Assembly (NCBI GenBank): GCA_036378955.1
Contig: DASUVM010000007.1
Coordinates: 36,442 to 100,441 of the forward strand
From: Candidatus Saccharimonadales bacterium
Lineage (GTDB): Bacteria; Patescibacteriota; Saccharimonadia; Saccharimonadales; Saccharimonadaceae
Direction of reading: 5' to 3'
DNA: 64,000 nt
In this document: in pieces, positions 19,354-20,680 of the stretch
Numbering within the stretch: position 1 is the first letter of the stretch
Layout of the letters: the number at the start of each line of letters is the position of its first letter
Position numbers and translations under genes: made by a program
The notes under the pieces: generated by a model
Databases searched by the model: none
Told to the model about the DNA's origin: nothing
Seen by the model: the letters and a program-made list of their open reading frames with translations, nothing else

Positions 19354-19494
19354 ATAAAGACGCTTTTTTAGCGCCACATAATCTTTTTATGGGATTTCAG
19401 CCTGGAACGTACGGGGGTGACTGGCTGCCACCTCACCGTACGCCCAGGTTGGTAGCGCCAGTTAAGGCCCTACCGGGTGTTCACTTCAGCTGTT

Positions 19495-20532
19495 CTACGC
19501 CCTGCGACGCCGCGACAACCACAACACCAGTGCACCGACGACCAGCAGCAACACGCCGCCAGCCACCAACCAGCCAACGTTGGCACCGGTGTCGGCTAGC
19601 TGCCCACCGTCGGTGTCGGTGTTGGCCGCCGGCACGATGTCAGCCGTTGTCGTAGTGGTTGTCACCGTGGTTGTGGTGGTTGTTGTTGGCACCGTTGTGG
19701 TCGTGGCCGGAGGACACTTCACAAGCGTTACCTTCTGCTTGACCTCCAGCTCGTGCTTCGGGTCGGTGACGTTGAGCTGGTATTCACCAGCCGACAACCC
19801 GCTGAAGACGAAGTCGGCGCTCTTGCCACCCTCGATCACCTGCTCTTTGGGCTCTAGTCCGCCGAGCTTGACGGTGTACTTCGCGCGACCCTCGTTCGGG
19901 TTCTTGACGGTGACAGTGACAGTGCCGTCTTTGTCGCCGACGCAGCCCTTGACCGTGACGTTGATCTCGGGCTTCAGGGGATCGCACTTGCATTTTGCCG
20001 GGTCGTCGACCGTCCAGGCCGGCTTGCCCTTGAAGAAGTAGTGCAGAAAGTTCGGCTGGCCTGAGTCAGTAGCACTCACGAGCGTCTTCGGCACGTCCGG
20101 AGCCTTGGGCTTTCCCGACTCCTTGTCTATGCCCTGCTCGGCGTAGCCGTCGGTCTGGCCGCAAAATCTGTCCTCGCGCGCCGACGCTGCCACGGTGTAG
20201 GTGCCGGGCTTCTCGATGGTGACGAGCTCGCCCGTCTCTACCAGGGTCTGCGGCCACTTGCCCTGCTTGGGGTTGTCGAACCGCCAGTTGGCAACCTGCG
20301 CCAATACTGGCGTGCAGAGCGGCTTGTCGCCGGTGATGGTGACCTTCCAGGCGGTCTGGCTGACCGCCTCGAGAGTGCCCACCTTCTTGGTGTCAACGTC
20401 CGCAACGCACTTCTCGGTCGTCTTGGCCTCGGGGCCCGGAACAACTGGCAGCTCTGGTTGCGCCATCGCCGGCGTCCCGACGAGTGCCAACAGCAGCGCA
20501 AACGCCACCGTGGCAAGAGATCTCTTGATCAC
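19495..20532 (-). CDS. cell-wall-anchored surface protein with an LAxTG sorting signal (high-GC, foreign-looking)
   Basis: ORF 19495..20589. The likely GTG start at 20532 follows AAGGAAAA and gives the signal peptide VIKRSLATVAFALLLALVGTPAMA|QPE. There is a Thr-run stalk TTTTVPTTTTTTTVTTTTTT. The C-terminus is QLADTG, then GANVGWLVAGGVLLLVVGALVLWL, then SRRRRA. A hand count on 19801-19900 gives 63% G+C. Confidence 0.8.
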   Translation of the reverse strand: MIKRSLATVAFALLLALVGTPAMAQPELPVVPGPEAKTTEKCVADVDTKKVGTLEAVSQTAWKVTITGDKPLCTPVLAQVANWRFDNPKQGKWPQTLVETGELVTIEKPGTYTVAASAREDRFCGQTDGYAEQGIDKESGKPKAPDVPKTLVSATDSGQPNFLHYFFKGKPAWTVDDPAKCKCDPLKPEINVTVKGCVGDKDGTVTVTVKNPNEGRAKYTVKLGGLEPKEQVIEGGKSADFVFSGLSAGEYQLNVTDPKHELEVKQKVTLVKCPPATTTTVPTTTTTTTVTTTTTTADIVPAANTDTDGGQLADTGANVGWLVAGGVLLLVVGALVLWLSRRRRA

Positions 20533-20680
20533 TGTTTTCCTTTTCGGAATTGAACAACTGAAAGAGAACTTGTAAAAACCCAGCGCCATGCGCTAGGCTA
20601 CCTCTTGTACCTCCATAAAAGTTGAGTACAGGACAAAGTTAATAATGCTAAAAAAACTACAAAAAGTAAAGGTTTTTTGG

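What the first reader, a model, noticed from the sequence alone, without database searches (positions are those of the whole stretch)
19395..20605. High-GC islet encoding an actinobacterial-style LAxTG wall-anchored surface protein
Seen in sequence: composition jumps sharply. My hand count is 63% G+C on 19801-19900, against 38% on 18301-18400 in the adjacent ychF. The single gene has a Sec signal (…LALVGTPAMA|QPE), a Cys-containing beta-rich body, a poly-Thr stalk, and the C-terminal tripartite signal QLADTG, hydrophobic helix, RRRRA. Established knowledge: LAxTG is the variant recognised by class E (housekeeping) sortases of Actinobacteria, and poly-Thr/Pro stalks are typical of their wall proteins. 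Inference: the gene was captured from a high-GC Gram-positive bacterium. If this genome is a Saccharibacteria-type epibiont, the donor would be the host lineage. The protein could then be displayed on the epibiont surface for adhesion or surface mimicry. I am not aware that this has been described, but I cannot check.
Basis: partly seen in the sequence, partly recalled or inferred. Interest (0 to 1): 0.78.

Follow-up and report, generated by a model that had tools for sequence, protein, structure and literature searches.

The report
Saccharibacterial wall-anchored protein with actinobacteria-like codons
A tiny epibiotic bacterium (Saccharibacteria) carries, in a fixed slot between two housekeeping genes, a fast-evolving cell-wall-anchored surface protein gene written in the GC-rich codon usage typical of Actinobacteria, and related genomes have kept that foreign-looking usage far longer than neutral decay should allow.

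Summary
Window 19495-20589(-) encodes one secreted surface protein with an LADTG anchor. Its GC is 62.7% against 46.8% for the rest of the window, and its GC3 is 0.82 against 0.45 (z about 6). The hand counts are exact.

This is not a recent capture. The same gene family sits between tlyA and ychF in at least six other Saccharimonadales assemblies, and it is GC3-rich in each (0.67-0.85, background 0.37-0.65). An eighth assembly (L016) holds an unrelated GC3-rich surface protein plus a sortase there. Protein identity tracks YchF identity (87->50, 84.5->41, 80->36, 65->27 %). Synonymous divergence is of the same order as in the flanks, and the 5' and 3' regulatory DNA is AT-rich or structured, and conserved. 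The closest relatives are Saccharibacterial. Two compositionally native actinobacterial homologs are at most 42% identical.

Codon usage matches actinobacterial genes (RSCU r 0.8-0.9), but the protein is Lys-rich, unlike those two homologs. A decay model rejects neutral amelioration in several lineages.

No sortase lies in the window. Two higher-GC relatives carry a class-F-like sortase in the slot.

Best reading: an ancient, vertically inherited, diversifying adhesin whose GC3 is maintained or renewed by an unknown force.

The parts
19495..20532 (-). CDS of the wall-anchored surface protein. The probable start is the GTG at 20532, giving 345 aa. The parts are: signal peptide MIKRSLATVAFALLLALVGTPAMA|QPE; an N-terminal Cys-stabilised beta-sandwich domain (undescribed family); an Ig-like beta-sandwich domain; a PPATTTTVPTTTTTTTVTTTTTT stalk; and LADTG + TM helix + RRRRA.
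   Evidence: ORF. GC3 is 0.82 and uniform along the CDS. TIGR01167 passes its cut-off. AF2 pLDDT is 91. The N-domain has no Pfam, PDB-sequence or PDB-fold relative. The C-domain recurs as a repeat in giant adhesin-like proteins.
20533..20589 (-). A 19-codon upstream extension of the longest ORF, probably not translated. It contains the Shine-Dalgarno-like AAAGGAAAA.
   Evidence: GC3 is 0.47. It has no counterpart in P0002. It aligns with non-coding 5' DNA of L001 and L005.
20590..20680 (-). AT-rich 5' intergenic region, conserved and apparently native. It carries a promoter-like TTTACT...CATTAT and a conserved 5'-UTR hairpin (GCCTAGCGCA / TGCGCTGGGT).
   Evidence: The full 148-nt tlyA-to-start intergenic region (20533-20680) is 36% GC. 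Mean column identity is 72% across WIN/L001/L005 over that region plus the first 10 coding bases. The consensus promoter scan found nothing, so the promoter call rests on eye and conservation only.
19395..19494 (-). GC-rich 3' untranslated region. It holds a long hairpin (CCTGGGCGTACGGTGAGGTGGC...GTCACCCCCGTACGTTCCAGG) conserved in L001, L015 and L005.
   Evidence: The whole 141-nt 3' intergenic region (19354-19494) folds at -57 kcal/mol in the window. There are equivalent hairpins in three other genomes. 5 of 17 pairs show compensatory changes among 4 sequences.
19359..19375 (-). Intrinsic-terminator-like stem-loop plus T-run that closes the transcription unit. It is shared back-to-back with the convergent ychF.
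   Evidence: GGCGCTAAAAAAGCGTC TTTATTTATA.
18265..19353 (+). ychF (Obg-like GTPase). This is the conserved right-hand border of the slot.
   Evidence: Pfam. Orthologs border the slot in L001, L002, L005, L010, L015 and L016.
20681..21415 (-). tlyA-like S4/FtsJ rRNA methyltransferase. This is the conserved left-hand border of the slot.
   Evidence: Pfam. Orthologs occur in L001, L002, L005, L013 and L016.

Best explanation
The gene encodes a surface adhesin-type protein of the Saccharibacterium itself.

How it is made and displayed:
- It is transcribed from a native, conserved, AT-rich promoter and 5' UTR, and exported by Sec (signal peptide cleaved at AMA|QPE).
- Its conserved cysteines are probably oxidised to disulfides (inferred).
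- A sortase cleaves the LADTG motif between T and G and links the protein covalently to peptidoglycan (inferred from the sorting signal; the sortase was not located).
- A poly-Thr stalk, possibly O-glycosylated, holds the two beta-sandwich domains away from the wall.

Where it sits and how it evolves:
- It occupies a dedicated surface-protein slot between tlyA and ychF, about 5 kb from the type IV pilus PilMNO genes.
- In this Saccharimonadales clade the slot has been inherited vertically.
- The protein evolves about 4-6 times faster than its neighbours (omega about 0.55 against 0.06-0.10). That is what is expected of a host-contact or antigenic surface molecule.

Origin and composition:
- The coding sequence, and only the coding sequence plus a structured 3' hairpin, uses GC-ending, actinobacteria-like codons.
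- The family most likely entered an ancestor of the clade from a high-GC Gram-positive lineage long ago.
- GC3 has since been held up or periodically renewed by a gene-specific force. Candidates are selection on codons or mRNA, or gene conversion.
- The state is not a transient left by a recent transfer.
For: - Sorting signal and signal peptide.
- Fold.
- Genome identity.
- Same slot in L001, L005, L015, L002, L010, L013 and L016.
- GC3 of slot genes is 0.67-0.87 against a background of 0.37-0.65.
- Island identity falls smoothly with YchF identity.
- The NJ tree has the same shape as the YchF tree.
- 4-fold-site signal retained between WIN and L001 is the same in the island (0.51 against 0.32 expected) and in the flanks (0.39-0.54 against 0.26).
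- dS is 0.8 against 1.1-1.75, and omega is 0.55 against 0.06-0.10.
- Conserved AT-rich 5' intergenic region and conserved 3' hairpin.
- The GC step falls exactly at the start codon, and GC3 is uniform along the CDS.
- Lys-rich composition with 90-100% AAG.
- Codon preferences match actinobacterial genes down to C- versus G-ending choice (r=0.90).
- Neutral F81 decay, even from 100% GC, is rejected for L001 (5e-8), L002 (3e-9) and WIN at the deepest split (4e-7).
- No excess of S>W changes among polarised changes (7:5).
- No mobility marks, tRNA, plasmid or viral relatives.
- Sortases and sorted proteins are known in TM7 (PMC3812714) and in more than half of CPR (PMC6744442).
- A sortase sits in the same slot in L013 and L016.
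Against: - No sortase was found in the 64-kb window or in the flanks of the close relatives. The rest of this genome could not be read.
- The direction and age of the original transfer are not resolved. Deep nodes of the family tree have low bootstrap support, and an actinobacterial sequence (P0012) nests near the window clade.
- Two lineages (L005, L010; GC4 0.66) do look as if they are decaying. The 'maintenance' may therefore be episodic renewal rather than constant selection.
- The decay model is crude. It uses F81, assumes equal rates in flanks and island, and works on near-saturated sites.
- L016 carries a non-homologous cargo with the same GC3 anomaly. Cassette replacement explains that more easily than strict vertical descent does.
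- No force that would keep GC3 high has been identified.
Confidence: 0.45

Rival explanations
1. Recurrent cassette replacement. The tlyA-ychF slot is a hot spot where surface-protein coding sequences taken up from high-GC neighbours or hosts repeatedly replace the resident one. Saccharibacteria carry DNA-uptake machinery (type IV pili, ComEC, DprA). GC3 stays high because copies are young. Congruence with the species tree arises because related epibionts use related hosts.
For: - The slot holds non-homologous cargo in L016 (GC3 0.87), and extra high-GC3 secreted-protein genes lie beside the family member in L002 and L010.
- GC3 varies among lineages (0.67-0.87), as if the copies were of different ages.
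- Actinobacterial P0012 nests among Saccharibacterial sequences.
- The sortase next door is compositionally native while its substrate is not.
- Competence genes (ComEC, DprA) and type IV pili have been reported in TM7 (PMC3812714).
Against: - No close actinobacterial donor turned up among 1.84 billion representative proteins. The best is 37-42% identical.
- All Saccharibacterial copies share a Lys-rich make-up that the actinobacterial homologs lack.
- WIN-L001 synonymous divergence is similar to the flanks.
- The replacement would have to start exactly at the start codon, leaving a conserved native 5' UTR.
- There are no repeats or integrase genes at the borders.
Confidence: 0.25
2. Native Saccharibacterial family, never imported. 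GC-ending codons are selected in this particular gene class, for example for mRNA stability or abundance of a major wall protein, or to throttle translation for export and folding. The rare actinobacterial homologs received the gene from Saccharibacteria or from a common pool.
For: - Most near-full-length relatives whose context could be read are in Saccharibacteria-type loci. Only two are in Actinomycetota, despite far denser sampling of that phylum.
- The GC step coincides with the CDS.
- Conserved 5'-UTR and 3' hairpins are typical of long-lived mRNAs.
- Island GC3 is about 0.8 whether the genome background is 0.40 or 0.65.
Against: - Highly expressed genes nearby (S6, EF-P) are not GC3-rich.
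- No precedent or mechanism was identified.
- LAxTG-type sorting signals score best with actinobacterial-type NCBIfam models.
- The actinobacterial homologs are compositionally at home.
Confidence: 0.17
3. One reading: a recent capture from the present actinobacterial host, recognised by a class E sortase.
For: A sharp GC and GC3 step, the LADTG motif, and actinobacteria-like codon usage.
Against: - Positional orthologs occur in at least six other genomes, with co-divergence.
- dS is about 0.8.
- There is no close actinobacterial homolog.
- The composition is Lys-rich.
- No class E sortase was seen. The sortases in this slot are class-F-like.
Confidence: 0.05
4. Assembly or binning artefact: a chimeric join of a high-GC read set into a Saccharibacterial contig.
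For: Only the sharpness of the step.
Against: The same junctions occur in independent assemblies, including a complete long-read chromosome OY969928.1, GCA_964566135.1, Logan contigs and a JGI contig.
Confidence: 0.01

Closest known systems
LPXTG/LAXTG sortase-dependent cell-wall-anchored surface proteins of Gram-positive bacteria (TIGR01167; e.g. MSCRAMM-type adhesins, Actinomyces/Corynebacterium wall proteins)
   Same: The overall layout matches: an N-terminal Sec signal, beta-sandwich (Ig/FN3-like) ectodomains, a Thr/Pro-rich wall-spanning stalk, then pentapeptide + TM helix + basic tail. The TIGR01167 cut-off is passed.
   Different: The N-terminal domain belongs to no curated family and has no solved-structure relative. 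The host is a Patescibacterium. The cognate sortase was not located.
Class E sortase substrates of Actinobacteria (LAXTG; Streptomyces chaplins, SrtE1/E2; established knowledge, not re-tested here)
   Same: The LADTG/LAETG/LASTG motif occurs in most Saccharibacterial copies. The LAxTG-type NCBIfam models give the best, though sub-threshold, hits.
   Different: All LAxTG-specific models fall below their cut-offs. Some orthologs use LPQTG or LLGTG. The sortases found in the slot are nearest class F, not class E.
Sortases and predicted sorted proteins reported in TM7/CPR genomes (Kantor et al. 2013, PMC3812714; Meheust et al. 2019, PMC6744442)
   Same: These papers show that sortase anchoring is already known in Saccharibacteria, so the window gene is another predicted sorted protein.
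   Different: In the passages retrieved here, neither paper mentions this family, the tlyA-ychF slot, or its anomalous codon usage.
Flexible or replacement genomic islets for surface structures in conserved slots, and classical amelioration of transferred genes (Lawrence & Ochman model; from my own knowledge)
   Same: A hypervariable surface-molecule locus sits between conserved housekeeping genes and has atypical composition.
   Different: Composition is atypical upwards and is confined to the CDS. GC3 is the most deviant position, while GC1 is close to the host's values (0.60 against 0.58 in window genes and 0.69 in the actinobacterial homologs) and Lys/Arg use is unlike the actinobacterial homologs (K/(K+R) 0.77 against 0.08). 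That is the reverse of the expected order of amelioration.
Complementary codon usage between Patescibacteria and their hosts (Katayama et al. 2026 preprint, 10.64898/2026.06.21.733656)
   Same: It concerns the same contrast: the epibiont genome uses one codon usage and the high-GC host uses the opposite one.
   Different: That work proposes the contrast prevents translation of host mRNA. Here a resident epibiont gene is written in the host-type codon usage, which the sections of that preprint read here do not describe.

Membership tests
LPXTG-type sortase-anchored surface protein (TIGR01167) | C-terminal tripartite signal (pentapeptide, hydrophobic helix, basic tail) scoring above the curated HMM cut-off | tested here: met
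   LADTG-ANVGWLVAGGVLLLVVGALVLWLS-RRRRA. TIGR01167 scores 20.5 bits against a cut-off of 15.9.
LPXTG-type sortase-anchored surface protein (TIGR01167) | N-terminal Sec signal peptide | tested here: met
   MIKRSLATVAFALLLALVGTPAMA|QPE, read from the sequence. It is conserved in P0002. No dedicated predictor was available.
LPXTG-type sortase-anchored surface protein (TIGR01167) | A sortase encoded in the same genome | tested here: inconclusive
   There is no TLxTC-motif ORF and no tblastn hit in the window or in the flanks of close relatives. Only 64 kb of the genome was readable. A sortase is adjacent in L013 and L016. Sortases are reported in TM7 (PMC3812714).
LPXTG-type sortase-anchored surface protein (TIGR01167) | Covalent linkage to peptidoglycan | not testable with these tools
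   Needs biochemistry.
Actinobacterial class E sortase substrate (LAXTG) | LAXTG motif | tested here: met
   LADTG. Orthologs carry LAETG, LASTG and LADTG, but also LPQTG and LLGTG.
Actinobacterial class E sortase substrate (LAXTG) | Match to curated LAxTG sorting-domain models (NF058582, NF041528, NF058583) | tested here: not met
   24.4 bits against 27, 22 against 30, and 32.3 against 65: all below cut-off.
Actinobacterial class E sortase substrate (LAXTG) | Class E sortase partner | tested here: not met
   None was found. The only sortases seen in this slot (L013, L016) score 58.8 bits with class F and 18.3 with class E, both below cut-off. This was not tested for the window's own genome outside the 64 kb.
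Recently transferred genomic island | Atypical composition relative to the genome | tested here: met
   GC z=6.8 and GC3 z=6.2. RSCU r is about 0 with the window's own genes and 0.86 with actinobacterial genes.
Recently transferred genomic island | Absent from the same locus in related genomes, or patchy | tested here: not met
   A family member lies at or next to the tlyA-ychF locus in L001, L005, L015, L002, L010 and L013.
Recently transferred genomic island | Closest homologs in the putative donor lineage | tested here: not met
   The closest homologs are Saccharibacterial (48%, 40%, 37%). The best actinobacterial homolog is 37-42% identical.
Recently transferred genomic island | Mobility marks (tRNA, integrase, flanking repeats, plasmid or phage relatives) | tested here: not met
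   No tRNA. Only short chance-level repeats. No viral or plasmid relatives.
Curated adhesin domain families (Pfam/NCBIfam: Cna-B, Big, FN3, SdrD-B, BapA etc.) | Domain match above the gathering score | tested here: not met
   Only sub-threshold hits to the C-terminal module. The N-domain has no Pfam hit in 14 members, no PDB sequence hit, and a best fold hit of E=0.018 with TM at most 0.36.

The most novel reading that the evidence does not exclude
The host-type codon usage is functional. Patescibacteria have been reported to import host RNA, and their codon usage is proposed to be complementary to the host's so that host mRNA is not translated. A resident surface-protein gene kept in the host's codon usage could then act as a codon-gated attachment switch. 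It would be translated efficiently only when host tRNAs or RNA flow into the attached epibiont. More radically, it could be translated in the host and displayed by the host's housekeeping LAxTG sortase as a docking site. Either reading would explain four observations:
- GC3 is conserved over a long evolutionary span.
- The anomaly stops at the CDS boundaries.
- It applies to whatever cargo sits in the slot.
- The sorting motif is of the actinobacterial type.
Probability: 0.04. Interest if true: 0.92.

Novelty: new variant of a known kind. Interest (0 to 1): 0.6.

Why it matters
How Saccharibacteria and other Patescibacteria recognise and hold on to their actinobacterial hosts is largely unknown beyond type IV pili.

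This locus supplies a concrete candidate. It is a conserved genomic slot next to the pilus genes, and it always holds a rapidly diversifying, wall-anchored or secreted surface protein, sometimes together with its own sortase.

The unusual part is evolutionary. The cargo keeps an actinobacteria-like GC3 of about 0.8 in genomes whose own GC3 ranges from 0.40 to 0.65, across divergences where synonymous sites are near saturation. Meanwhile GC1 and Lys/Arg use no longer look actinobacterial. That is the reverse of textbook amelioration.

The pattern therefore points to one of two things:
- a recurrent supply of host-type coding DNA into one site, or
- selection acting directly on synonymous codons of a host-interaction gene.

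Either would bear on epibiont-host co-evolution and on the recent idea that codon usage separates parasite and host translation. The locus is also a useful marker (tlyA-X-ychF) for mining surface-protein diversity in Saccharimonadales MAGs.

Tried and rejected
- Word-indexed protein searches gave almost nothing. There were 3 hits for the protein and 4 for the family profile. The exhaustive profile search was what revealed the family.
- The search for related loci with the 13-sequence alignment failed because there was no conserved stretch. With 4 sequences it returned only the already-known L001 genome plus a weak Bacteroidota hit in GTDB species genomes, and one JGI contig.
- I tried to prove a sortase in the same genome. 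A TLxTC motif scan and tblastn with the L013 sortase and S. aureus SrtA (written from memory) found nothing in the window or in close relatives' flanks. A homolog search with the L013 sortase found 17 proteins, none on the contigs of interest. P0001's own contig is not indexed.
- Fold searches of the two-domain model and of the N-domain alone gave only generic FN3/Ig-like matches. I rejected any specific functional transfer from factor XIII/TG2 or RbmA.
- I considered that the GC-rich patch was an RNA gene or a mobile element. There were no Rfam or tRNA hits, no meaningful repeats, and no phage or plasmid relatives.
- I considered amino-acid composition as the cause of the high GC. This is rejected because the excess lies in GC3 (0.82) while GC1 is ordinary.
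- I considered a regional mutational or gBGC effect. This is disfavoured because tlyA, ychF and the 5' intergenic region next to the gene are not GC-enriched.
- Polarising 4-fold changes with outgroups yielded too few sites to be decisive.
- Literature searches found no description of this family, slot or codon anomaly.
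Full report
**1. The observation**

GC is 0.63 on 19801-19900 and 0.38 on 18301-18400.
- The island 19395-20532 is 62.7% GC against 46.8% for the rest of the window. 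That is z=6.8 against 606 equal-sized windows, none of which exceeds 54.5%.
- The step is concentrated in third codon positions. GC1/2/3 are 0.60/0.48/0.82 for the gene and 0.58/0.39/0.45 for fourteen pooled window genes. It is the extreme outlier of 62 ORFs (z=6.2).
- A single ORF, 19495-20589(-), fills the island. It carries a signal peptide (...LALVGTPAMA|QPE), a poly-Thr stalk, and LADTG + hydrophobic helix + RRRRA.
- The C-terminus passes the curated cut-off of TIGR01167.
- AlphaFold2 with a 13-sequence alignment gives a confident model (pLDDT 91) of two beta-sandwich domains.
- One correction: the real start is probably the GTG at 20532. The 19 codons upstream have native GC3 (0.47), are absent from the ortholog, and align with non-coding DNA of relatives.

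**2. What organism, and what surrounds the gene**

The identical protein is deposited as 'MAG TPA: LPXTG cell wall anchor domain-containing protein [Candidatus Saccharimonadales bacterium]'.

The neighbours are housekeeping and pilus genes, in this order: PilO, PilM, a 778-aa protein, TPR, a beta-lactamase/PG-binding protein, YchF, the gene, TlyA (S4+FtsJ), a 151-aa ORF, EF-P.

The window has no sortase motif, no second sorting-signal protein, no tRNA and no Rfam hit.

**3. The gene is a positional ortholog across Saccharibacteria**

The only close homolog, P0002 (48% identical), lies in the same tlyA-X-ychF slot of a complete 1.26-Mb Saccharibacteria chromosome, OY969928.1.

The exhaustive profile search found about a dozen near-full-length relatives. 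It also found hundreds of giant repeat proteins that share only the C-terminal Ig-like module.

| Locus | Member | Context |
|---|---|---|
| L005 | P0008 | same slot |
| L015 | JGI contig, LAETG | gene convergent with ychF |
| L002 | P0088, GCA_964566135.1 | same slot |
| L010 | P0116 | next to ychF |
| L013 | P0011 | 54% GC relative; tlyA upstream, sortase downstream |
| L016 | unrelated 532-aa surface protein | same SSB-S18-EFP-TlyA...YchF-PilMNO-PilBTC synteny; a sortase is also in the slot |
| L004 | P0132, Egicoccus | Actinomycetota contig, 73.5% GC, gene compositionally native |
| L006 | P0012 | Actinomycetota contig, 71.5% GC, gene compositionally native |

Two more members (L003/L009, L014) are in 55-60% GC contigs of unknown taxon.

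**4. The anomaly is shared and old**

In every Saccharibacterial locus the slot gene is GC3-rich.

| Locus | GC3 of slot gene | Background GC3 |
|---|---|---|
| WIN | 0.82 | 0.37-0.45 |
| L001 | 0.85 | 0.37-0.45 |
| L015 | 0.83 | 0.37-0.45 |
| L005 | 0.67 | 0.37-0.45 |
| L002 | 0.85 | 0.37-0.45 |
| L010 | 0.72 | 0.37-0.45 |
| L013 | 0.79 | about 0.65 |
| L016 | 0.87 | about 0.65 |

Evidence for co-divergence with the genome:
- Island protein identity falls smoothly with YchF identity: 87->50, 84.5->41, 80->36, 65->27 %. Within the second clade it is 85->42 %.
- The NJ tree has the same shape as the YchF tree, though deep bootstraps are weak and actinobacterial P0012 falls near the window clade.
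- Between WIN and L001, 4-fold sites at conserved residues keep the same fraction of signal in the island (0.51 observed, 0.32 expected) as in the flanks (0.39-0.54, 0.26 expected).
- dS is about 0.8 for the island against 1.1-1.75 for the flanks. dN/dS is about 0.55 against 0.06-0.10.

Evidence from the regulatory DNA:
- The 5' intergenic region is AT-rich (36-42% GC) and conserved among WIN, L001 and L005, including a hairpin.
- The 3' UTR carries a long GC-rich hairpin conserved in four genomes with compensatory changes. A terminator follows it.
- The GC step therefore coincides with the CDS, signal peptide included.

Together these results say that the locus (promoter, gene and 3' element) has been inherited vertically at least within the WIN/L001/L015/L005 clade. 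The protein evolves fast, as surface molecules do.

**5. Why this is odd**

Synonymous codon choice in the slot genes correlates with actinobacterial genes and not with the resident genome.
- RSCU r is 0.55-0.91 against actinobacterial genes and about 0 against the window's own genes.
- The C- versus G-ending choice has r=0.90.
- AAG makes up 90-100% of Lys codons against 34% genome-wide.

Yet GC1 is host-like, and the proteins are Lys-rich (K/(K+R) about 0.77 against 0.08-0.09 in the two actinobacterial homologs). Classical amelioration changes GC3 first, so this is the reverse order.

I calibrated an F81 decay on flank 4-fold sites. Even an ancestor with 100% GC at these sites cannot yield the observed GC4 in:
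- L001 (P=5e-8 at the L005 split);
- L002 (3e-9 at the L010 split);
- WIN and L002 at the deepest split (4e-7 and 2.5e-15).

L005 and L010 (0.66) are compatible with decay. Polarised changes show no S->W excess, but the counts are small.

So GC3 is being held up or renewed in several lineages. The model is crude, and this step is inference.

**6. Function**

*Shown:*
- The export and sorting signals are present.
- The protein has a two-domain beta-sandwich ectodomain.
- The N-domain has four conserved Cys plus the motifs PLC, WPQ and CGQxDxYA.

The N-domain has no Pfam family, no PDB sequence relative and no significant fold neighbour. The C-domain is a common adhesin repeat.

*Inferred:*
- Sortase-mediated anchoring on the Saccharibacterial wall.
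- Disulfide formation.
- O-glycosylation of the Thr stalk.
- A role in contact with the host.

Sortases and sorted proteins are already reported for TM7 and for CPR generally (PMC3812714, PMC6744442). The sorting signal alone is therefore not new.

The class E inference is unsupported. The LAxTG-specific models fall below their cut-offs. The sortases seen in this slot are nearest class F, though divergent. Their neighbours use LLGTG/QLGTG motifs.

**7. Explanations**

| Explanation | Probability |
|---|---|
| Ancient acquisition of a high-GC Gram-positive-type gene, then vertical inheritance in a dedicated surface-protein slot, with GC3 maintained by an unidentified gene-specific force | 0.45 |
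| Recurrent cassette replacement from high-GC donors | 0.25 |
| Native family with selected GC-ending codons | 0.17 |
| Recent capture from the present host | 0.05 |
| Assembly artefact | 0.01 |

- Recurrent replacement is favoured by the non-homologous cargo in L016 and by the heterogeneous GC3. It is disfavoured by the lack of any close actinobacterial donor among 1.84 billion representatives, the shared Lys-rich make-up, the dS parity and the exact CDS boundaries.
- A native family is favoured by the predominance of Saccharibacterial members and by the hairpin-flanked mRNA.
- Recent capture is refuted by synteny and co-divergence.
- An artefact is refuted by five independent assemblies.

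**8. Novelty and the speculative reading**

I found no description of this family, this slot or this codon anomaly in the searchable literature.

A 2026 preprint proposes that Patescibacteria keep codon usage complementary to their hosts' so that imported host mRNA is not translated. Against that background, a resident host-interaction gene conserved in the host's codon usage is provocative.

The most novel reading not excluded is a codon-gated, attachment-dependent expression switch, or translation in the host. I give it about 4%.

**Verdict**

The protein is a new member of a known kind. The persistent, CDS-confined compositional anomaly at a conserved slot is a new variant worth follow-up.

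Noticed in passing
window 20533-20589 (-): The longest-ORF start (ATG at 20589) is probably wrong. The GTG at 20532 fits the ortholog's start, the GC3 step and an upstream AAAGGAAAA. The deposited 364-aa protein would then be 19 residues too long.
   Followed up: yes
L002 11455-13005 (GCA_964566135.1): The gene called on the minus strand (516 aa, GC1 0.85, Arg/Asp/Gly-rich nonsense) is an antisense miscall. The plus strand 11479-12969 encodes a 496-aa secreted protein with YxYxW-type Ig repeats and high GC3, so the island holds two surface genes in this lineage. L010 1-1278 carries a similar gene.
   Followed up: partly
L013 6925-7677 and L016 7412-8089: A divergent Saccharibacterial sortase clade (IIGH ... 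LVLATC) sits inside the tlyA-ychF slot. Its best NCBIfam match is class F at 58.8 bits (cut-off 166). The adjacent substrates end in LLGTG/QLGTG + TM + basic tail rather than LPXTG/LAXTG. The sortase is compositionally native (GC3 0.72) while its neighbour is not (0.87).
   Followed up: partly
window 19395-19447 (-) and counterparts in L001, L015, L005: A long GC-rich hairpin (...CGTACGG...CCGTACG...) lies just after the stop codon. It is conserved in four genomes, with 5 compensatory pairs, and has no Rfam match. It could be an mRNA-stabilising 3' element.
   Followed up: partly
window 20590-20680 (-): The 5' intergenic region is conserved. It has a promoter-like TTTACT...CATTAT, a GGAGGTAC box and a hairpin GCCTAGCGCA/TGCGCTGGGT, shared with L001 and L005. 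The consensus promoter scan did not flag it.
   Followed up: partly
window 37999-38421 (+): This is the second GC3 outlier of the window: a 140-aa ORF with GC 0.59, GC3 0.70 and a hydrophobic C-terminal half. It has no RNA-family or tRNA match, and its nature is unknown. The adjacent 39001-40000 stretch has GC 0.54 and GC skew +0.14.
   Followed up: partly
L005 6532-7984: Two genes just beyond ychF give weak Pfam hits to ART-PolyVal and to ADP-ribosylating exotoxin. They are possible toxin or effector genes next to the surface-protein slot.
   Followed up: no
L001 1-3442: A PMT_2-family glycosyltransferase and a GtrA+GT2 fusion lie about 7-10 kb from the gene in the complete Saccharibacteria chromosome. 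They are candidates for O-glycosylating the poly-Thr stalk.
   Followed up: no
L004 457-1443 (Egicoccus sp.): The actinobacterial homolog P0132 has the family's N-domain fused to an acidic D/E/T-rich repeat instead of the Ig-like module, and uses LPRTG. The N-domain is therefore the mobile, family-defining unit.
   Followed up: no
L003 and L009: Family members P0031 and P0018 (GC3 0.75-0.81) lie next to a conserved pair of unknown genes (MSVQLEIQDGSP..., MTQF[AV]IPNRPFATEP...) in 55% GC contigs of unidentified taxonomy. The compositional excess is present there too.
   Followed up: no
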